A stretch of 64,000 nt of DNA from Gaiellaceae bacterium (GTDB lineage: Bacteria > Actinomycetota > Thermoleophilia > Gaiellales > Gaiellaceae). Under the pieces are notes generated by a model. It was not told where the DNA came from, did no database searches, and saw only the letters and a list, made by a program, of their open reading frames with translations. A program made the position numbers and the translations under genes. Positions 2,274 to 41,415 of this stretch are shown piece by piece (positions within the stretch are counted from its first letter, which is position 1; each line of letters opens with the position of its first letter). The stretch is from positions 32,376 to 96,375 of the forward strand of contig DASRCL010000005.1 in the NCBI GenBank assembly GCA_035653115.1, given 5' to 3'.

Positions 2274-3974
2274 TTAGGGGTTCGACACAGGTGCGAGCAG
2301 CGGTCGCAGCGCGTCGAGTAGGAGTGCTGGATCGGAGCGCGTCGCCTTCAACAGAGAGTCGAATCGGTAGATCCCGTAGGAGTCGTACCGTCCAACGTCG
2401 AACTGGATGCGCTTGCGAAGCGGCGACAGGTGCAGGCCTACGTACTGACCAACGGTCGCATGGTTCCAAACGATTTCCTTCAGCCGATCTTCCCTCACAG
2501 CCCGCTCGACTTCGGAGGCGACAGTACCGCGGTTTGCGAGTCGCGTATCGGTACCGTGTGGATTGCTTGTCAGGATCAACCTGCCGGCATCGGGGTCGAA
2601 CGCCGCGGTTACGGTGAACGGGCCCGTGGCCGGAATGAGCGTTCCCATCTGAACGCTTGTCAGCACGCTCAACCGAAGGAGATCCTCGCGCGAGTCGCCG
2701 GCGGCGAGGCGCGGAGCGAGCCTTCGCAGCGCGGGCCAGCGCATGCTGTAGCGAATAGCGAAGCCGCGTAGGATCACGTGCCGGGCAAACCAGTACACCG
2801 TGCTAATCCAGTAGCCGCGCCCGCTGACGATCTCCTCAGCCTTGAGCGCGAGCCGCGATGGCACGTGTCTGCCACGAGGCGTCGCGCGCGCCGCGAGTAG
2901 CTCGTCGAATTCCTCGACGAAGCTGCGGTAGGCGTACTTGCCGGACGCGATCAGGTCGCGGTGCGTGGACTCGACGAGCTGGCCGAGGAACGAGTCGTCG
3001 CGAATTAGGCGCCCGACTTCCTCGATGTTTGAGAAGTCCTTCTCCAGCGGAATGTAATGCCGCCACGGCTCGACGATCTCCGAGTACGACCCCGGGAACA
3101 TTACGAGAGCGCTCCGATGGGCCGCTGCCTCGAACACGCGCGGCGAGATCGTCGCGATCTCCGGACCGCCGAGGAACGGCCTGAGAACGTTCCGCTCTAC
3201 CTCGACGTAATCGGCTAGCGGGTGTTCCGCGATGTACGCCTTGACGGCCGCCTCGGCAGCTCCGTCCACGTCAATGATCGACGCGCCGCTCTCACTCGCC
3301 AGGACAGAGCGGCAGGACGAGAGAAAGGTCGACCAGGCACGCCCGTAGATCCGCGCGTTCTCCGTCCAGGCGATGTCGCAGCGGAGTCCGAGCCCAGGTG
3401 CGCGCTCGAGAAACCCACGGCCAATCGCCACCTTCTCGTACCCGAGCCGACCGAGCCAGTACGGCAGAGACCGTCCTCTGTAGCCGACGTCGAGTGGGCG
3501 GCTCGCCGTCGGCGGCGTCGCAAGCTGCTCAAGTGCCGGAGCCACGTATCCCGTCAACGTGTGGACGATCTCCGTCTCGGGAAGCCGCTCGGCGTACATG
3601 AACGACGCGGCTGACTCGGATGCGACGGAAAGAAGCACGTTGATTCCGACGGCCCGCTGCGCAGCACACATCATTTCGACCCACCGGTATTCATCTTGGA
3701 TGAACTGCACCTTGAGCCCGTCGTATTCGGCGAGTGCCTCCCGCAGAGCCGGCGCGACGTAGTCGTCCCAGATCAAGACGAGTGAGTAGTGGATGACGAC
3801 CACATCAAAGGCACCGAGATCGAGCCGTTCGGGGGAGGAGATCCCACGCGGGTTGAATACGGTGACGCGGTGTCGCGAGAGACGACGAAGCGCATCGATG
3901 TGTTCGTGGACTGTCCCCGCATTGCCCTTTTGATCGTCTGCGAGCAACAGCACCGCGAGCGGCTCAGCCGTCAC
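2274..3974 (-). CDS. hypothetical protein, tentatively a CgeB-like glycosyltransferase-related protein
   Basis: Non-repetitive 587-aa ORF trimmed to GTG 3974, which forms a GTGA overlap with the stop of the upstream gene at 3971. The C-terminal half (SPRVFEAAAHRSALVMFPGSYSEIVEPWRHYIPLEKDFSNIEEV) resembles CgeB / GT1-like domains. The function is tentative. Confidence 0.6.
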   Translation of the reverse strand: MTAEPLAVLLLADDQKGNAGTVHEHIDALRRLSRHRVTVFNPRGISSPERLDLGAFDVVVIHYSLVLIWDDYVAPALREALAEYDGLKVQFIQDEYRWVEMMCAAQRAVGINVLLSVASESAASFMYAERLPETEIVHTLTGYVAPALEQLATPPTASRPLDVGYRGRSLPYWLGRLGYEKVAIGRGFLERAPGLGLRCDIAWTENARIYGRAWSTFLSSCRSVLASESGASIIDVDGAAEAAVKAYIAEHPLADYVEVERNVLRPFLGGPEIATISPRVFEAAAHRSALVMFPGSYSEIVEPWRHYIPLEKDFSNIEEVGRLIRDDSFLGQLVESTHRDLIASGKYAYRSFVEEFDELLAARATPRGRHVPSRLALKAEEIVSGRGYWISTVYWFARHVILRGFAIRYSMRWPALRRLAPRLAAGDSREDLLRLSVLTSVQMGTLIPATGPFTVTAAFDPDAGRLILTSNPHGTDTRLANRGTVASEVERAVREDRLKEIVWNHATVGQYVGLHLSPLRKRIQFDVGRYDSYGIYRFDSLLKATRSDPALLLDALRPLLAPVSNP

Positions 3975-5362
3975 GGGCAGACAGTTCCGAGCATTTCGTT
4001 GTACGCCGTGACAAGGCGCTCTTGTTCGGTCTCCCACAAAAAGGCGCTACCGCGCTCGGTGAGATTCGCGCGGAACTCAGCGAGTCTGTGCAGCGGAAAC
4101 TCGTCGAGCGCAGCGGCGACCTCGACCGGCGAATCGAGGCTCCTGACGAGACCGAATCCGTTTGTGGTGACGATCGACTCAATGAACTCGAGCCGATTCG
4201 ACAGAATTGGCAGCCGCGCAGCGATGAACTCGTATAGCTTGTTCGGCGAAGCGAAGCGCGTGTTCACGTCGGTTGTCGGCGAATAAGGGATGACACCGAG
4301 ATCGGCCGAGGCCGTGTAATAGAGCAGCGTCTCTTGGGGCTTCGACTCGATGTACATCACGCGGTCACTATCGTTGGCGAGCCGGAGAAGCTCGCGGTGA
4401 TATTCGCCGTATCCCATCAGGACAAGCGTGTAAGCCTGGTGGGCGGTGATGACGCCCTCGACGAGCGCCTCAAGGTTGCGCCGAGGGGCGATCCATCCTT
4501 GGAATAGAAGGATCGGCCGTTCCGCAGGTGCGCCGTGTTCCTCGCGGAGGAGATCGAACCGGTTCTGATGGAGGTCACTTGGAACGCCGACCGCGTTTTG
4601 AACGACGCGGATATCGACGTTGCCGTAGGCGGTCGCGATTGCTTGCGCGAGTCGGGGATTGACTGTGATGCGCAAGTCGGCCGCGCCGATATGCGTGCGC
4701 TCGAGCGCTCGGAATCGCTCGCGCGATTCGGGCGAAAGGACGCGCTGCTCGGGGAAGAACTCGTGCATGTCGTAGACGAGCTTCGTCCCCAAGCGTCGCT
4801 GGATCTCGCGGCCGACGCGGAGCAGCGGCAGGTCATGGACGTGGACGATGTCTGGACGATATGCCAGCGTGCGCTCGATGAACGCGTGCTCGTACGGGTA
4901 AAACCTCGCCGTCTGCCCTCGCGGCCTGCTTAACCGGCTTAAGACGCGTGCGGCGGTGTTGGTCGTCCAGATCGCGAACCGCGTTCCCCGCCACACCGCT
5001 GATGCGCGCGCGCGTGCGGCGAAGACGGCGACCGATCGTTCCGTCCTGTGGAGCCTCCGAAAGACCTCGGAGCCGGCGTTCGCGCGTCGCGCGAGCGGGT
5101 CGGTAAGCGGGTTCCGCCCCGACCCCGGCGGGAAGGGCAGACCCATCAACCGGGTGACAACTGCGAGTCGTGCGAGTTCGAAGCGCTCGCGCATCGGGGG
5201 TTCGGGGAGACGTACGTGCTCCACCGGTACGCCGGAGAGTCGCCTGTACTGGTCGTGTTCGTGCGTTGGCGCGGCTAGGACGTAGACGTCGAAACCCTCG
5301 TCGAGCAACGTCCTCGCTTCGAGGATGATACGGCGGTCAACGATAACGTCAGGGGTCACCAT
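3971..5362 (-). CDS. glycosyltransferase family 4
   Basis: ORF trimmed to ATG 5362 (AGAGGG upstream, 40 nt after the preceding stop). N-terminus is MVTPDVIVDRRIILEARTLLDEGFDV. The GT-B C-terminal half contains LLFQGWIAPRRNLEALV and SPNKLYEFIAARLPIL. It is a paralogue of 7452..8759. Confidence 0.85.
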   Translation of the reverse strand: MVTPDVIVDRRIILEARTLLDEGFDVYVLAAPTHEHDQYRRLSGVPVEHVRLPEPPMRERFELARLAVVTRLMGLPFPPGSGRNPLTDPLARRANAGSEVFRRLHRTERSVAVFAARARASAVWRGTRFAIWTTNTAARVLSRLSRPRGQTARFYPYEHAFIERTLAYRPDIVHVHDLPLLRVGREIQRRLGTKLVYDMHEFFPEQRVLSPESRERFRALERTHIGAADLRITVNPRLAQAIATAYGNVDIRVVQNAVGVPSDLHQNRFDLLREEHGAPAERPILLFQGWIAPRRNLEALVEGVITAHQAYTLVLMGYGEYHRELLRLANDSDRVMYIESKPQETLLYYTASADLGVIPYSPTTDVNTRFASPNKLYEFIAARLPILSNRLEFIESIVTTNGFGLVRSLDSPVEVAAALDEFPLHRLAEFRANLTERGSAFLWETEQERLVTAYNEMLGTVCP

Positions 5363-23576: not shown

Positions 23577-24782
23577 TCAGGGAGCGGCGGCTTCGATCCG
23601 GAGCGCGGCGGCGCCCTCGCTCGCGCGGCGCAGCGCGTCGTTCGCGTCGTCGCCCGTCGCGATCACGTAGCCGCGCCGGTCGGCGTCGACGCGCAGCGGA
23701 CCGATCTCCGCGCCGACGTCGAAGTAGAGGCCGACGTCGAGGACGCCGTCGCACGCGCGCGCGTCGTCGAGGCCGTCGATACGGGTCACCCGGCCGACGG
23801 GCAGGAAGCCCGGCGACGCCGTCAGGAACCGAATAGCGACCGGGCGGACGAACCGCGGCGTGATCAGCTCGTCGGGCACCGCGCGCCCGAGCGCCTGGGC
23901 GATCGCGACGTCGTAGAGGTCGATGCCGGTCGCGTGCAGGACGAGGTCGGCCATCTGCCCGGCCGCGATCCGCGCCGCCACCTCGACGACGACGACGCCG
24001 TCCGGGGTCGCGAGCAGTTGCGGGAACGCGATCCCGTCGCGCAGGCCGAGGCAGCGGATCGCGTCGGCGGCGACACGGTCCGCTTCCGCGAGGAGCTCGT
24101 CGGGCAGCGTCGAGGGGAAGCGGTGGATCCAGCCGACGCCGAAGCCGGCGCCGCCGGGGCGGAGGCGGTCGGAGAGCGTGAGGAGGGTCGGCTCGCCGTC
24201 GCGGACGACGTAGAGCGCGTTCAGCTCGTCGCCCGCGACGTACTCCTCGAGCAGCGCCTCCCCACGCTGCGAGAGCGCGATCGCCTCCGGGAGGACCTCC
24301 TCGAGCCCGTCGCGACGCTCCACGAGGAAGAGCCCGCGCTGGCCGCCCGAGTCGGCCGGCTTCAGCACCGCGGGGAACCGCAGCCCGTCGAGCTCGGCGA
24401 AGCCGTCCTCGGTCAGGACCGCATGGGGCGGCTGCGGGACGCCGCAGTCCGCGAGCCGCGCGCGCATCGTCGGCTTGTGCGTCATCCGGCGGGCGACCTC
24501 CGGCCCGATTCCGGGCAGCCCGCAGCGCTCGGCCACGCTCGCCGCCGGGACGACAGCACGGTCGGTGCAGACGGCGAGGACGCCGTCCACGCGCTCGCGC
24601 TCCGCGACGCGCGCGACCGCGTCGACGTCGCTGAAGTCGACGGCCTCGGCGACGTCGCAGAGCGCGAAGCCGGGTGCGTCGGGCGCCGCGTCGCAGGCGA
24701 CGACGCGATGGCCTGCGGCGCGCGCGCGCCGGATCCCGGCGAGCTGCGAGACGCTGGCTCCCAGGAAGAGGAGCGTTGCCAA
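23577..24782 (-). CDS. ATP-grasp domain ligase (paralogue 1)
   Basis: Contains LLFLGASVSQL, THKPTMRARLADCGVPQP, FPAVLKPADSGGQRGLFLV and GVGWIHRFPS. TTG start at 24782. Confidence 0.88.
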   Translation of the reverse strand: MATLLFLGASVSQLAGIRRARAAGHRVVACDAAPDAPGFALCDVAEAVDFSDVDAVARVAERERVDGVLAVCTDRAVVPAASVAERCGLPGIGPEVARRMTHKPTMRARLADCGVPQPPHAVLTEDGFAELDGLRFPAVLKPADSGGQRGLFLVERRDGLEEVLPEAIALSQRGEALLEEYVAGDELNALYVVRDGEPTLLTLSDRLRPGGAGFGVGWIHRFPSTLPDELLAEADRVAADAIRCLGLRDGIAFPQLLATPDGVVVVEVAARIAAGQMADLVLHATGIDLYDVAIAQALGRAVPDELITPRFVRPVAIRFLTASPGFLPVGRVTRIDGLDDARACDGVLDVGLYFDVGAEIGPLRVDADRRGYVIATGDDANDALRRASEGAAALRIEAAAP

Positions 24783-24883: not shown

Positions 24884-26257
24884 TCAGGAGGCGAGCGCGG
24901 GGTCGGAGGCGACGCGGAAGCGGATCGCCTGCGCGGCCTGCTCGGCGCGCTCGACGGCGTCGTCGCGCGAGGCGCCGGTGACGAGAACGGCTCCGGCCCG
25001 GTCGGCGCCGCGGCGGAGCGGCGTGAAGACGTAGCCGGGCGTGCGGTAGATGCGGACGCGTTCGAGCTCCGGCGGCACCTCGACGCCTTCGAACACGCCC
25101 GGCGGGGCGACGAGGAAGCGCGTGACCGCGCCGCCGACGCGGGCGACCGGGGTCGGCAGCGCAAGCGGGCGCCCGAGCGCGGCGTCGATCGCCAGGTCGT
25201 TGAGCGGCACGCCGGTCGCAGCCTCCACGAGCTCCGCGTCGTGGCCGCCCCCGAGCCGCGCCGCCACCTCGATCACCTTCGGCCCGTCCCCGTCGACACG
25301 CAGCTGCGTGTAGCTCGGCCCCTCGGTGATTCCGAGGGCAGCCACCGCTGCTCGGGCCACGTCTTGGCTCAGAGCCAGGACGTGGCCCGGCGAGCCAGTG
25401 GCCCGAGCGGCTCCGACGCCGTCGTTCGCGCGCGTAGTGCGGCTCGGAGCGGCAGAGGACGTCGCCTCCGCGGCCACGTCCCGGCCTGGAGGCTGGACAT
25501 GGTCCGTTGCCGCACCGGACGCGGCCGCTTCGGCCGCGTCCTGGCTCAGAGCCAGGACGCGGCTCGGCCAGACATGTGCGAGCGCGACGCCGAAGGCGGG
25601 CGGGTCGGCGACGACCCGGTCGGTGACGGCGAGCGCGGCGAAGCGGCCGCCGCCCGAGAAGCCGATCACCGTCACCTCCGGCCCGTCGACGAGCTCCTCG
25701 ACGAGCGCGAGGCCGTTTCGCGCCGCGCCGCGCGCGGTGGCGACCGCGCCCGCGAGATCGCCGCCCGGCAGCACGAGCGTGAGACCCTTCTGCCCCTGCC
25801 GGTCGGGCGCCTTCACCACCGCAGCCCCCGCCACGTCCGGCAGCGGGTCGCCGGCTCCGACGACCCACCAACGCGGCTGCGGCACGCCCGCCGCGGCGAG
25901 GCGCTCGCGCTGACGCAGCTTGTTCGTGGCGAGCACCGCCGCTTGCGGCGTGAGCGGATGCGGCAGCCCGAGCCGCTCCGCGACGCGCGCCGCGACCGCG
26001 ACCGGCCAGTCCGTCCCCGGCGCGACGAGCCCGCCGACGCCGAGCGCCGCCGCGAGCCGCTCGATCGCCGGCTCGTCCTCCGTCGAGAGGATGCAGCGCC
26101 GATCGGCGAGCGCGAATCCCGGCGCCGCCGGGTCACGGTCGACGACCGCCGTCCAGACACCGCGCGCCCGCGCCGCCTCGAGCAGGCCGAGCTGCGCCGG
26201 CCCCGCGCCTAGGACGAGTAGGCGCGGGCTTCGCGCGCGAGGATCGCCCTCCACCAC
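24884..26257 (-). CDS. ATP-grasp domain ligase (paralogue 2) carrying an in-frame 59-codon repeat-flanked insertion
   Basis: Contains LLVLGAGPAQL, TNKLRQRERLAAAGVPQP and AAVVKAPDRQGQKGLTLV. The ATP-grasp core is interrupted between HVWPSR and VLALSQDVARAAV by 59 low-complexity residues that the paralogues lack. The GTG start overlaps the rfbB stop by 49 nt. Confidence 0.8.
   Translation of the reverse strand: MVEGDPRARSPRLLVLGAGPAQLGLLEAARARGVWTAVVDRDPAAPGFALADRRCILSTEDEPAIERLAAALGVGGLVAPGTDWPVAVAARVAERLGLPHPLTPQAAVLATNKLRQRERLAAAGVPQPRWWVVGAGDPLPDVAGAAVVKAPDRQGQKGLTLVLPGGDLAGAVATARGAARNGLALVEELVDGPEVTVIGFSGGGRFAALAVTDRVVADPPAFGVALAHVWPSRVLALSQDAAEAAASGAATDHVQPPGRDVAAEATSSAAPSRTTRANDGVGAARATGSPGHVLALSQDVARAAVAALGITEGPSYTQLRVDGDGPKVIEVAARLGGGHDAELVEAATGVPLNDLAIDAALGRPLALPTPVARVGGAVTRFLVAPPGVFEGVEVPPELERVRIYRTPGYVFTPLRRGADRAGAVLVTGASRDDAVERAEQAAQAIRFRVASDPALAS
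25354..25563. repeat. palindrome-flanked repeat element, copy 1 (inside the ATP-grasp CDS)
   Basis: 25354..25388 is a 35-nt palindrome, GGGCCACGTCTTGGCTC-A-GAGCCAGGACGTGGCCC, with 1 mismatch. 25533..25563 is a perfect 31-nt palindrome, GCCGCGTCCTGGCTC-A-GAGCCAGGACGCGGC. Their centres are 177 nt apart. The internal sequence shares TGGACATGG, CCGTTGC and GCCGCTT(T)CGGCC blocks with 37234..37369. Confidence 0.75.
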
Positions 26258-36190: not shown

Positions 36191-37240
36191 GTGAAGCCGA
36201 TCACGGTGCTGGTGAGCGCGGCGGGCGCGCCCGGAACCGCGGCGCTACTGCGCGCGCTGCGCTCGAACGGCGAGCGCGACGTGCGGCTCGTCGGCACCGA
36301 CATGAGCGACCGCTCGGTCGGCCGGCATCTCTGCGACGCGTTCCACCGCGTCCCGGCCGGGTCGGATCCCGCGTTTCCGGACGCGATGCTCGACGTCGCG
36401 ACACGAGAGCGGGTCGACGCGATCCTGCCCCAGTCGTCCTTCGACCTCGCCGGCCTCGCCGAGCACGTCAACCGGTTCCCGATGCCGGTGCTCGTCTCGA
36501 GCCCCGACACGATCCGGCGCTCAAACGACAAGGCGGAGACGTACGAGCTACTGCACCGGCTCGGCGTCCCGGCGCCGCGGTTCAGGCGCGTGAACGGCGG
36601 ACACGCAGTCGCGGCCGCAGCGGAGGAGCTCGGCTACCCGGAGCGGCCGGTGTGCTTCAAGCCGGTCTTCTCGTCGGGCTCGCGCGGCTTTCGGATCCTC
36701 GACGCGTCCGTCGACCGCGCGCACCAGCTGTTGCACGAGCGGCCGGGATCGGTGGCGATGCGGCTCGACGAGGCGGTCGAGCTGCTGCCGCCGGAGGGCG
36801 GCCCGGACCTGCTCGTGATGGAGCTCGCGACCGGCGGCGAGCGCACGGTCGACGGCATCGCCGACCGGCGCTCCGTCGTGCTCGGGCATCCGAAGACGCG
36901 CGAGGCGATGCGCGCGGGGCTCGCGATGTACTTCGTCACGCTCGAGGACGCCGAGCTGATGCGGCTCGCGGACGTGATCGTCTGCGAGCTCGGCATCGAG
37001 CACTTCTTCAACATCCAGCTCGTCGGCGAGCACGTGATCGAGATCAATCCGCGCATCTCGACGATCGTCTACCAGGAAGACCTCAACCTGCCGTACCTCG
37101 GCGTCAAGCGCGCGCTGGGCGAGATCTCCGACGACGAGCTGCGCGCGTACGCGACTCGCGTCCGCCCGGGCCGAACCGCGCTGCGCTACTTCGACCAGCT
37201 CGAGTTCGACACGTCCCCGCGGGCCATGGACGTGCTCTGA
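36191..37240 (+). CDS. ATP-grasp domain ligase (paralogue 4, CPSase-large-subunit-like / PylC-like subtype)
   Basis: Contains MKPITVLVSAAGAPGTAALLRAL, NDKAETYELLHRLGVPAP, PVCFKPVFSSGSRGFRIL and IEINPRIS. Confidence 0.85.
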   Translation: MKPITVLVSAAGAPGTAALLRALRSNGERDVRLVGTDMSDRSVGRHLCDAFHRVPAGSDPAFPDAMLDVATRERVDAILPQSSFDLAGLAEHVNRFPMPVLVSSPDTIRRSNDKAETYELLHRLGVPAPRFRRVNGGHAVAAAAEELGYPERPVCFKPVFSSGSRGFRILDASVDRAHQLLHERPGSVAMRLDEAVELLPPEGGPDLLVMELATGGERTVDGIADRRSVVLGHPKTREAMRAGLAMYFVTLEDAELMRLADVIVCELGIEHFFNIQLVGEHVIEINPRISTIVYQEDLNLPYLGVKRALGEISDDELRAYATRVRPGRTALRYFDQLEFDTSPRAMDVL

Positions 37241-37369
37241 GCCAGGACATGGCTCGTTTGGACATGGAGCCCGATCCTGCCGTGGCGGCCGTTGCGTCCC
37301 GGCGGCGGCCTGCATCACACGCCCAATTGCCGCTTTCGGCCCTGGCCGGGCTCTGAGCCAGGACATGGC
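37234..37369. repeat. palindrome-flanked repeat element, copy 2 (intergenic; duplicates the stop/start junction)
   Basis: GCTCTGAGCCAGGACATGGC occurs exactly at 37234..37253 and at 37350..37369, a 116-nt offset. The first copy contains the TGA stop of the ATP-grasp gene. The second contains the ATG of the next gene. The interior shares sequence blocks with 25354..25563. Confidence 0.75.
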
Positions 37370-38297
37370 GCTTCGGGTCACGCACTGCCCCGTCAACATC
37401 GCCGGCATCCCGTGGGAGAACGTGCAGGCGCTGCGGCGGAAGGGCGTCGACGCGCGGCTCGTCGTCTTCAACCGCGGCCGCCTGCATCCCGAGGCCGACT
37501 GGAGCCTCGACCGCCACGGCCCGCTGCCGCAGCGGCTCGCGCAGCAGGCCGCGGCGTTCGCGCGGCTGGCGCCGCGCACCGACGTCTTCCACTTCTACTT
37601 CGGCCTGACGCTGCTGCCGAAGTCCGTCCAGTTCCCGCTCCTCCGCGCGCTGCGCAAGAAGAGCGTCTTCCACTACCTCGGCTCCGACATCCGCGGCAAG
37701 CCGCGTGCCGAGCTCGCCTACGGCGAGCGAGCGGACGCGGAGATCGTCGGCTCCTACGACGCGCAGCGCTGGGTGCCGCACGCGCACGTCGTCCCGCCTG
37801 GCCTCGACCTGCGGCCGTTCGCGCCGGTGCCGCCGTCCGACAGCCCGCGTCCGCTCGTCGTGCACGCGCCGTCGAACCGCGAGAAGAAGGGGACGGAGCA
37901 CGTCATCGACGCGTGCGCCCGGCTGTCGGTCGAGCTCGACGTCGTCGAGGGCGTGCCGCACGACGAGGCGCGCGCGCGTTACGCCCGCGCGGACATCGTC
38001 GTCGACCAGCTCTACGCGGGCTGGCACGGTGTGTTCGCGCTCGAGTGCATGGCGCTCGGCAAGCCGGTCGTGACCTACCTGAAGCCGGACGTCGTGGAGC
38101 GAAGCGCGGAGGGCTACGGCATGCGGATTCCGATCGTGCCGGCGACGAAGGAGACGCTCGTCGACGCGCTCCGCCCGCTCGTCGAACGGCCGGCGCTGCG
38201 CCGGGAGCTCGGCGCGGCCGGGCGTGCATACGTCGAGCAGGTGCACGACATCGACCGGATCGCCGACCGCCTGCTGGACGTCTACCGTTCGCTGTAG
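37365..38297 (+). CDS. GT-B-like glycosyltransferase (paralogue of 5403..6485)
   Basis: Contains MALRVTHCPVNIAGIPWENV, TDVFHFYFG, LVVHAPSNREKKGTEHV and DQLYAGWHGVFALECMALGKPVV. Confidence 0.8.
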   Translation: MALRVTHCPVNIAGIPWENVQALRRKGVDARLVVFNRGRLHPEADWSLDRHGPLPQRLAQQAAAFARLAPRTDVFHFYFGLTLLPKSVQFPLLRALRKKSVFHYLGSDIRGKPRAELAYGERADAEIVGSYDAQRWVPHAHVVPPGLDLRPFAPVPPSDSPRPLVVHAPSNREKKGTEHVIDACARLSVELDVVEGVPHDEARARYARADIVVDQLYAGWHGVFALECMALGKPVVTYLKPDVVERSAEGYGMRIPIVPATKETLVDALRPLVERPALRRELGAAGRAYVEQVHDIDRIADRLLDVYRSL

Positions 38298-41296: not shown

Positions 41297-41323
41297 CGCG
41301 GGGTCTGACCCGGGTCTGACCCC
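41297..41323. repeat. 27-nt direct repeat A (tandem GGGTCTGACCC units)
   Basis: CGCGGGGTCTGACCCGGGTCTGACCCC is identical to 41389..41415. Each GGGTC-T-GACCC unit is a 5+5 inverted repeat. Confidence 0.85.
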
Positions 41324-41388: not shown

Positions 41389-41415
41389 CGCGGGGTCTGA
41401 CCCGGGTCTGACCCC
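41389..41415. repeat. 27-nt direct repeat B (tandem GGGTCTGACCC units)
   Basis: An exact copy of 41297..41323, 92 nt downstream. It lies in the 360-nt gap between the beta-propeller gene and helD. Confidence 0.85.

What the first reader, a model, noticed from the sequence alone, without database searches (positions are those of the whole stretch)
25354..25563. Palindrome-flanked 177-nt element inserted in frame in the core of an ATP-grasp gene
SEEN:
- Two long palindromes have centres exactly 177 nt (59 codons) apart: 25354..25388 (35 nt, one mismatch) and 25533..25563 (31 nt, perfect). Both are built on GGCTC-A-GAGCCAGGAC.
- In the coding (minus) frame each palindrome encodes VLALSQD.
- The 59 codons between them (DAAEAAASGAATDHVQPPGRDVAAEATSSAAPSRTTRANDGVGAARATGSPGH) are low-complexity.
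- These codons have no counterpart in the paralogues. Those read straight through: GVGWIHRFPSTLPDELLAEADRVAADAIRCLGL and GVGWIHVYPASVFGDQLELAERVAVHTVHALGL, versus HVWPSR[insert]VLALSQDVARAAVAALGI.
- A related copy of the same element is intergenic at 37234..37369.

INFERENCE:
- This is a small non-autonomous repeat (MITE/REP-like), or a hairpin-mediated duplication, that landed inside a coding sequence without breaking the frame.
- Either the ligase tolerates a 59-aa loop, or this paralogue is inactivated.
- The hairpins could also act as transcript-level structures inside the operon.
Basis: seen in the sequence. Interest (0 to 1): 0.62.

Follow-up and report, generated by a model that had tools for sequence, protein, structure and literature searches.

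The report
Translated REP palindromes inside a ligase gene
A short hairpin-forming repeat of the REP type, whose likely transposase gene (RayT) lies on another contig from the same soil sample, sits in three in-frame copies inside a Gaiellaceae ATP-grasp ligase gene, adds a floppy 59-residue loop, and also rebuilt a nearby gene junction.

Summary
Two near-perfect palindromes have centres 177 nt apart. A third, decayed copy lies between them, with spacings of 60 and 117 nt. All three are in frame in a 457-aa ATP-grasp (L-amino-acid-ligase-like) gene.

- **Insert is lineage-specific.** All 119 other best homologues are 365-417 aa. Syntenic orthologues at 85-88% identity lack the 59 codons.
- **The palindrome is a repeat family.** The consensus is about 53 nt (TTCGGGCCGTGTCCTGGCTC-T-GAGCCAGGACACGGCCCGAA). 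Copies are dispersed in high-GC Gaiellales contigs, mostly just after stop codons, and often in doublets about 60 or 93-118 nt apart.
- **A RayT-like gene is linked to it.** On a contig from the same sample, at the same depth, a RayT-like Y1 transposase gene is flanked on both sides by copies. This points to a REP-RAYT system.
- **The "empty" site is not empty.** Orthologues carry one palindrome in the same loop, with other cores and compensatory changes. The window therefore shows growth from one resident unit to three, not a clean landing.
- **Second locus.** A doublet replaced an overlapping stop/start and supplies TGA, AGGA and ATG.
- **Structure.** AlphaFold keeps the ATP-grasp fold, and the insert is disordered.

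Verdict: a new REP family with rare, translated, intragenic copies. Interest is moderate.

The parts
24884..26257 (-). ATP-grasp ligase gene (457 aa; LAL_C2 C-terminal domain) that carries the in-frame palindrome array
   Evidence: ORF. Pfam PF18603 at 2.4e-13. The AF2 model matches L-amino acid ligase 3vot (TM 0.79 on the target). Synteny GT2-epimerase-ATP-grasp-ATP-grasp holds in L072/L076.
25513..25583 (-). REP unit A. Its perfect 31-nt palindrome is 25533-25563, centre 25548. It encodes S-RVLALSQD-AAEAA. Its upstream flank is the native HVWPS codons.
   Evidence: Model R1, built only from intergenic copies of other genomes, scores 67.6 bits, E 6e-12.
25472..25506 (-). REP unit B, decayed (74% complementary to unit C), centre 25488. 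It encodes HVQPPGRDVAAEA, which resembles the orthologues' single loop HV(S/M/Q)PxGxDVA.
25336..25406 (-). REP unit C. Its 37-nt palindrome is 25353-25389 with one mismatch, centre 25371. It encodes G-HVLALSQD-VARAAVAALGI and runs into the native helix.
   Evidence: R1 scores 56.7 bits, E 1e-9.
25372..25548 (-). The 177 nt (59 codons) that are extra relative to orthologues. These are nominal centre-to-centre limits; the true limits are ambiguous because the ends repeat.
   Evidence: Orthologue DNA in L072/L075 shows one unit at this site. Codon-position GC is flat in the 51 inner codons (0.78/0.78/0.76) against 0.85/0.56/0.92 in the rest of the gene. Residues 249-291 have pLDDT below 50.
37203..37273 (+). 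REP unit at locus 2, first copy (centre 37238). Its core supplies the TGA stop of gene 36191..37240.
   Evidence: R1 scores 37.3 bits, E 2e-5. Sequence.
37319..37389 (+). REP unit at locus 2, second copy (centre 37354). Its core supplies AGGA and the ATG start of the glycosyltransferase gene 37365..38297.
   Evidence: R1 scores 49.0 bits, E 6e-8. Sequence.
37249..37356 (+). A 35-codon mini-ORF that runs from the ATG of the first core to the TGA of the second core
   Evidence: Read directly. Whether it is translated was not tested.
36191..37240 (+). ATPgrasp_Ter/PylC-like gene whose last residues (TSPRAMDVL) and stop codon come from the inserted repeat
   Evidence: Orthologues are 341-345 aa against 349 aa here. 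In L083 the gene overlaps the next one by 4 nt (GCGTGACC), with no spacer.

Best explanation
The palindromes are members of a REP (repetitive extragenic palindrome) family of Gaiellaceae.

**The family**
- Each unit is a self-complementary hairpin of about 53 nt.
- Units normally lie just downstream of stop codons, singly or as doublets.
- The family is most likely maintained and multiplied by a RayT-type HUH/Y1 single-strand DNA transposase.

**The ATP-grasp gene**
- The lineage carries one such palindrome in frame in a variable loop, between the strand ending HVWPS and the helix DVAxAAVAALGI.
- In the window's genome that unit carries the canonical family core. It has multiplied to three units (+177 nt, +59 aa).
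- The array is read through by the ribosome. It gives an Ala/Gly/Ser-rich disordered loop on an otherwise intact ATP-grasp fold.
- It survives because its length is a multiple of three and its frame has no stop.

**Locus 2 (37.2 kb)**
- A doublet replaced an overlapping stop/start junction. The operon stayed intact because the core CTC-TGA-GCC-AGGA-C-ATG provides a stop, a Shine-Dalgarno-like AGGA and a start.

**Status of the steps**
- Shown: family membership, orthologues without the extra DNA, a RayT gene flanked by copies on another contig from the same sample, and a preserved fold.
- Inferred: RayT mobilises the units, the array grew in place, and the enzyme still works.
For: **Family**
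- A metagenome scan with the 19-nt core gave 59 stretches. About 25 of them, on 0.70-0.74 GC contigs, share a long palindromic consensus well beyond the query.
- One assembly, Ga0209810, has at least 13 loci on 8 contigs of 105-608 kb.
- Arms vary by compensatory changes (CGT/ACG, CAC/GTG, CAT/ATG, CCC/GGG). On alignment A4, 77% of cells pair against 31-42% when the partner is slid. There are 47 double-change cells against 33.8±5 in shuffles (3/500).
- Copies are mostly intergenic and close to stop codons, often between convergent genes. Doublets are spaced 60-61 or 93-118 nt, as in the window.

**RayT**
- L086 3893-4501 is a Y1 transposase. It scores 31.5 bits on PF01797 (cut-off 23) and 67.5 bits on NF047646 "REP-associated tyrosine transposase" from a partial sequence. 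It has HFH and RYVVLNPV motifs, and homologues are named RayT.
- It is flanked by family copies at 3811-3881 (49.7 bits) and 4482-4552 (59.1 bits).
- Run X1 holds this locus at 100% identity and depth 22.3. The window is at depth 19.8 and L050 at 13-17.
- Fourteen X1 contigs carry the unit, with summed depth 354 against 19.8 for the flanking sequence.

**Insert is derived**
- The 119 other best homologues are 365-417 aa. Alignment and DNA of syntenic orthologues show a single unit.
- At locus 2 the orthologues have a 4-nt gene overlap.

**Resident unit**
- Model R1, trained without any ATP-grasp sequence, gives its best hit in L075 (38.1 bits, E 1e-5), L072-74 (30.7 bits), L076 (36.5 bits) and L078 (20 bits). 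Each hit falls exactly at the orthologous loop.

**Tolerated**
- The AF2 model has pLDDT 82.6 overall and below 50 for residues 249-291. The flanking strand and helix are kept, and the fold matches 3vot.
Against: - Copy number and RayT are therefore shown only for contigs of the same sample at similar depth. They are not proven to belong to the same genome as the window.
- **No evidence of movement.** No polymorphic empty or filled site was seen within one population.
- **The orthologue palindromes may be something else.** They could be a separate, gene-specific conserved hairpin rather than old REP copies. Their cores were found nowhere else in the roughly 0.68 Mb of sequence held. Part of the model score comes from conserved coding flanks.
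- **How the array grew is unresolved.** Inner flanks of units A and C resemble the native gene flanks (16/21 and 17/21), which favours in-place duplication. But the 51 inner codons have no codon-position GC signature, and direct versus inverted flank comparison is not decisive.
- **The REPIN form was not shown.** Units are self-palindromic, their orientation by central base is mixed, and the locus-2 doublet does not fold better than shuffles (z = -0.88).
Confidence: 0.7

Rival explanations
1. A conserved intragenic hairpin with a function of its own sits in this loop of the ATP-grasp gene. It could be a transcription attenuator or pause site, an RNase site, or a site for a dimeric protein inside the glycan operon. 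Its resemblance to the REP family let the family core overwrite it and amplify it in this one lineage.
For: - Nine of the ten orthologue lineages examined at the DNA level have a strong palindrome at this loop, with different cores (GGGAC-A-GTCCC, CCCC-W-GGGG, GGCTC-T-GAGCC, GTGTCWGACAC and others), while the peptide varies.
- On 8 aligned units, 89.3% of cells pair against 77.9±2.4 in shuffles (0/500). There are 13 double-change cells against 5.7 (0/500). Slid controls give 33-41%.
- One change alters the protein to keep pairing: H(CAT)...D-M(ATG) against H(CAC)...D-V(GTG).
- The site ranks among the most stable hairpin windows of each gene.
Against: - Only 8 units from 6 genes were aligned, and 3 of them come from the window.
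- Palindromes can also be kept symmetric by mutation (template switching) or by REP-type homogenisation, without any function.
- L077 has no such hairpin.
- L078 and L079 carry unrelated palindromes with extra residues, which looks like repeated colonisation rather than one conserved element.
- There are no expression data.
Confidence: 0.15
2. The 177-nt piece is a classical MITE that transposed as one unit: inverted terminal repeats, a conserved body, and a duplicated target.
For: - It has palindromic ends 177 nt apart.
- A second doublet of similar build lies 12 kb away.
Against: - Spacer sequence is not conserved between the two window loci or among 11 doublets from other contigs. Only the palindromes align.
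- Spacing varies: 60, 93-118 and 177 nt.
- Single units exist (L022, L024, L039).
- There is no target-site duplication apart from the units themselves.
- The associated gene is a RayT-type Y1 transposase, which makes no such duplications (this last point is from established knowledge of IS200/IS605-type enzymes).
Confidence: 0.07
3. The insert is an assembly artefact created by palindromic k-mers in a metagenome assembly.
For: - Palindromes and multicopy repeats are classic causes of misassembly.
- Only contigs, not raw reads, could be inspected.
Against: - An independent assembly of run X1 gives the same 702 nt with no differences at a depth typical for the genome.
- The structure is a direct, in-frame array with diverged units, not an inverted duplication.
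- The second locus shows the same kind of event with coherent stop and start signals.
Confidence: 0.03

Closest known systems
REP/BIME elements with RAYT (TnpA-REP) transposases of Enterobacteria and Pseudomonas (REPINs)
   Same: - Short imperfect palindromes that are dispersed and mostly extragenic, close to gene ends.
- They cluster in doublets or arrays.
- A RayT-type Y1/HUH gene is flanked by the cognate repeats.
- Background: abstracts of PMC3337134 and PMC3116915; PMC5581495 for RAYT groups.
   Different: - The phylum differs (Actinomycetota, Thermoleophilia) and the sequence is unrelated.
- Units are longer (about 53 nt) and almost perfectly self-complementary.
- The REPIN form (two inverted REPs folding together) was not demonstrable.
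- Three units lie in frame inside a gene and are translated.
- In the library searched, no paper links REPs with Gaiellales.
Rickettsia palindromic elements (RPE)
   Same: Palindromic repeats inserted in frame in unrelated protein-coding genes, adding peptide segments judged compatible with fold and function (PMC10969869, read).
   Different: - RPEs are about 100-150 bp with a conserved encoded peptide and are frequently intragenic.
- Here the unit is 55-60 nt, only 7-10 residues are conserved (VLALSQD), the family is overwhelmingly intergenic, and a RayT is associated.
Mycobacterial interspersed repetitive units (MIRU) and the Chunjie MITE of Geobacter
   Same: - Repeats sit between genes of an operon without breaking it.
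- For MIRU (from my own knowledge), small ORFs in the repeat overlap the stop and start of the flanking genes. This resembles locus 2 and its 35-codon mini-ORF.
[quoted passage not shown]
   Different: - No sequence relation was tested.
- MIRUs are tandem minisatellites, not long hairpins.
- Translation of the mini-ORF here is untested.
L-amino acid ligase BL00235 (PDB 3vot), as host protein
   Same: The ATP-grasp fold and LAL C-terminal domain.
   Different: - Sequence identity is only 19%.
- The substrate is unknown.
- The solved structure has no counterpart of the 59-residue loop. The sequence alignment breaks between query residues 195 and 289.

Membership tests
REP-RAYT system | Short (about 20-60 nt) imperfect palindrome able to form a hairpin | tested here: met
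   The stem is about 25 bp, and 77% of cells pair across 29 intergenic copies against 31-42% when the partner is slid.
REP-RAYT system | Many dispersed copies in one genome | tested here: inconclusive
   - The window holds five units in 64 kb.
- Ga0209810 has at least 13 loci and about 22 units on 8 large contigs.
- Fourteen contigs in run X1 carry the unit at a depth like the window's.
REP-RAYT system | Predominantly extragenic, near gene ends, often clustered | tested here: met
   Most doublets lie 19-60 nt after stop codons or between convergent genes. The gene calls were rough, based on GC3 in stop-to-stop ORFs.
REP-RAYT system | A RAYT (Y1/HUH) gene flanked by the cognate REPs | tested here: met
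   - L086 carries REP 3811-3881, the gene 3893-4501, and REP 4482-4552.
- This locus is on a different contig from the window, but it is in the same run at depth 22.3 against 19.8.
- The NCBIfam equivalog score is 67.5 bits, below its 80-bit cut-off, on a partial sequence.
REP-RAYT system | REPIN form: two REPs in inverted orientation that fold together | tested here: inconclusive
   - Units are self-palindromic.
- Orientation judged by the central base is mixed.
- Flank comparison is not decisive.
- The locus-2 doublet folds no better than shuffles.
REP-RAYT system | Mobilisation or cleavage of the REP by the RAYT | not testable with these tools
   This needs biochemistry or population data.
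Rickettsia palindromic elements | In-frame insertion into protein-coding genes | tested here: met
   A single copy also lies in a glycosyltransferase gene of L009/L023.
Rickettsia palindromic elements | Element of about 100-150 bp with a conserved encoded peptide, frequently intragenic | tested here: not met
   The unit is 55-60 nt, spacers are not conserved, and most copies are intergenic.
MITE | Terminal inverted repeats plus a target-site duplication and a conserved body | tested here: not met
   Only the palindromes align, and no separate target-site duplication exists.
Rfam RNA families | Match at the gathering score | tested here: not met
   There were 0 matches in the window. Only sub-threshold generic hairpin hits were found.

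The most novel reading that the evidence does not exclude
The palindrome in this loop is an old, structurally conserved nucleic-acid element kept inside the coding sequence of the glycan-operon ATP-grasp gene across Gaiellaceae. Its stem is preserved by compensatory changes, some of which alter the protein. Its core tracks the REP population of each genome. Under this reading, REP-RAYT systems homogenise or overwrite a hairpin inside a gene, and a REP array can grow within an expressed enzyme. That would link selfish-repeat dynamics directly to protein loop evolution and possibly to intra-operon regulation.
Probability: 0.2. Interest if true: 0.75.

Novelty: new member of a known kind. Interest (0 to 1): 0.5.

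Why it matters
- **Lineage.** REP-RAYT systems are documented chiefly in Gammaproteobacteria (PMC5581495). This case gives a well-defined REP family with its likely RayT in Gaiellaceae, an abundant and almost uncultured soil lineage.
- **Intragenic survival.** It shows that such "extragenic" hairpins can persist, and even multiply, inside an expressed gene and at a translationally coupled junction, provided frame, stop and start are kept. That is a concrete route by which selfish hairpins create disordered protein loops and re-wire operon junctions.
- **Annotation.** Repeats of this kind break assemblies and can mislead gene callers. One example is the ABC-F gene in L018, whose ORF runs on through a doublet.
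- **Testability.** The recurrent palindromes in one loop across orthologues give a testable case of selection or mutation bias acting on DNA/RNA structure inside a coding region.

Tried and rejected
- **Genome scan.** The genome-contig scan did not return the window's own genome. Only two of its 12 stretches (L005, L009) belong to the family; the rest look like chance matches in high-GC genomes.
- **Simple tandem duplication rejected.** The 102 nt upstream and downstream of the repeat do not resemble the insert interior.
- **Borrowed from the L009 gene rejected.** I asked whether the insert came from the glycosyltransferase gene that also encodes HVLALSQDVAR (L009). No homology exists beyond the palindrome.
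- **Paralogue.** The paralogue's equivalent loop (24035-24125) has no family hit. The weak hit at 23909-23989 lies elsewhere in that gene.
- **Orthologue-type cores.** A search for these cores elsewhere in the 0.68 Mb held found none. The sample is too small to say they are unique.
- **Flank comparison.** Direct versus inverted flank identity within doublets is not decisive.
- **Data not obtained.** No RNA run holds the gene.
- **GGGTCTGACCC overlap.** The shared 12-13-mer between the L079 loop palindrome and the window repeats at 41.3 kb is about what chance allows. I estimate roughly one such match expected, so it is only noted.
Full report
**1. What is in the sequence**

- Two palindromes stand at 25353-25389 (18+1+18 nt, one mismatch) and 25533-25563 (15+1+15 nt, perfect).
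- In codon register the centres are 25548, 25488 and 25371. The three units are therefore 60 and 117 nt apart, or 20 and 39 codons.
- The 16-nt core occurs at four places in the window against 0.07 matches expected.
- All three units lie in the minus-strand ORF 24884..26257 (457 aa). They read RVLALSQD, HVQPPGRD and HVLALSQD.
- The protein is an ATP-grasp enzyme with the L-amino-acid-ligase C-terminal domain. Its model matches 3vot best.
- An independent assembly of public run X1 contains 25011-25712 without a single difference at depth 19.8.

**2. The 59 codons are lineage-specific**

- The 119 other best homologues are 365-417 aa.
- Orthologues at 85-88% identity, in the same gene order (GT2, epimerase, ATP-grasp, second ATP-grasp, DegT and so on), read HVWPS-HVSPQGQ-DVAAAAVAALGI. 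The window has 83 residues over the same span.
- The 51 codons between the outer palindromes have flat codon-position GC (0.78/0.78/0.76), against 0.85/0.56/0.92 in the rest of the gene. They do not look like long-selected coding sequence.
- AlphaFold (70-sequence alignment, pLDDT 82.6) keeps the strand 225-230 and the helix 291-307. Residues 249-291 have pLDDT below 50.

**3. The palindrome is a repeat family**

- A scan of JGI metagenome contigs with the 19-nt core gave 59 stretches.
- In contigs of 0.70-0.74 GC the match always sits in a much longer palindrome. The consensus is ...TGGCGGTTCGGGCCGTGTCCTGGCTC-T-GAGCCAGGACACGGCCCGAACCGCCA....
- Arm variants are compensatory.
- One assembly, Ga0209810, has at least 13 loci on eight contigs of 105-608 kb.
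- Units are commonly paired at 60-61 or 93-118 nt, the same spacings as in the window. The spacers are not conserved.
- By a rough GC3-based gene call, most copies lie just after stop codons, often between convergent genes.
- No Rfam family matches. The paper library holds nothing that links REPs to Gaiellales.

**4. A RayT gene is flanked by the family**

- Among ten ORFs next to repeats, one (L057:2-520) matches Pfam Y1_Tnp above its cut-off. It also matches NCBIfam "REP-associated tyrosine transposase" at 67.5 bits on a partial sequence, below the 80-bit cut-off.
- It carries HFH and RYVVLNPV motifs. Its homologues are named RayT, and some come from Gaiellaceae MAGs.
- With both flanks fetched (L086), the order is REP 3811-3881 (49.7 bits), gene 3893-4501, then REP 4482-4552 (59.1 bits) overlapping the stop.
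- Run X1 holds this locus at 100% identity and depth 22.3. Another family locus, L050, is at depth 13-17, and the window is at 19.8.
- Fourteen X1 contigs carry the unit, and summed depth on the palindrome is 354 against 19.8 beside it.
- These loci therefore belong to the window's genome or to an equally abundant close relative.

**5. The "empty" site is not empty**

- Covariance model R1 was built only from 29 intergenic copies of other contigs.
- In every orthologue locus tested except L077 and L079, its best hit falls exactly at the loop. The scores are L075 38.1 bits (E 1e-5), L072-74 30.7 bits, L076 36.5 bits and L078 20 bits.
- The orthologue DNA there is itself palindromic, with other cores:
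  - CACGTCTCACCCC-A-GGGGCAGGACGTG
  - CATGTCCGGGGAC-A-GTCCCCAGACATG
  - GGTGTCAGACACCG-GAA-CGGTGTCTGACACC
  - and, with extra residues, unrelated palindromes in L078 and L079.
- Across 70 orthologues the loop peptides are the kind that translated palindromes give: HVRGQSPDV, VSDTxxVSDT, VPGTxxVPGT.
- On eight aligned units, pairing is 89.3% against 77.9±2.4 in shuffles, with 13 double-change cells against 5.7 (0/500 each).
- So a hairpin has been resident in this loop for a long time. The window's lineage carries the canonical family core (95-100% identical to intergenic copies, against 53-68% for the orthologue cores) and three units instead of one.

**6. How the array arose is only partly resolved**

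- The inner flanks of units A and C resemble the native gene flanks (17/21 and 16/21). This favours duplication in place by slippage or unequal exchange between hairpins.
- L069 shows a clear direct duplication of a unit in an intergenic doublet.
- Against a recent in-frame duplication, the interior lacks codon periodicity. The direct versus inverted comparison is not decisive.
- RayT-mediated addition of units cannot be excluded.

**7. Locus 2**

- In orthologues at 89% identity, the ATPgrasp_Ter gene and the glycosyltransferase gene overlap by 4 nt (GCGTGACC).
- In the window about 127 nt net have been added, containing two units (R1: 37.3 and 49.0 bits).
- The first core gives the TGA of the upstream gene, whose last residues are new.
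- The second core gives AGGA and the ATG of the downstream gene, whose first residues are new.
- A 35-codon ORF bridges the two cores.

**8. Verdict**

- The interpretation "REP-like repeat in frame in a gene" is right in kind. However, the element is a REP-RAYT-type hairpin unit, not a 177-nt MITE, and it expanded at a site that already held a palindrome.
- It is a new family of a known kind, with an unusual, translated, intragenic array.
- The recurrent, structurally conserved palindrome in one protein loop is the part most worth following up.

Noticed in passing
window 41297-41323 and 41389-41415; L079 8287-8312: Tandem GGGTC-T-GACCC inverted-repeat units occur twice, 92 nt apart, in an intergenic region. 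The orthologue L079 (P0011, also P0017) has an 11-residue longer loop that holds a perfect 26-nt palindrome, TCTGACCCTCAACGTTGAGGGTCAGA, preceded by GGGGG. This gives GGGGTCTGACCC, the same 12-mer as in the window repeats. This may be a second palindrome family, but a 12-mer match is within chance.
   Followed up: partly
L009 4541-4571 (= L023 6357-6387): A single perfect 31-nt family palindrome lies inside a glycosyltransferase-like gene of a Gaiellaceae MAG. It is read as SHVLALSQDVARR, with no homology to the window beyond the palindrome. This is a second intragenic, in-frame copy. Whether it adds residues relative to orthologues was not checked.
   Followed up: partly
L018 2765-2896: A 61-nt-spaced REP doublet directly follows an ABC-F ATPase gene. 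The reading frame runs on through it for about 130 more codons of Ser/Arg/Cys-rich sequence before a stop. Either the natural stop was lost or gene callers will over-extend this gene.
   Followed up: no
window 25312-25561, as seen in run X1: A 340-nt contig (depth 14.9) of a related strain in the same sample matches both sides of the loop, with 107 other letters replacing 248 nt of the window. Its loop is therefore 47 codons shorter than the window's and 12 codons longer than the minimal orthologue loop. Loop length is polymorphic among co-occurring relatives.
   Followed up: no
L077 8045-8117: An intergenic palindrome lies just upstream of the GT2 gene of the same operon in a more distant relative. 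It scores 33.1 bits with R1 but has a different core (GCCCGGG...CCTGGAC). This hints at lineage-specific variants of the family.
   Followed up: no
L086 5990-7497: The RayT locus sits inside a type IV pilus/T2SS-like cluster: PilX_N, prepilin peptidase, a T2SSE ATPase and three N_methyl pilin genes.
   Followed up: no
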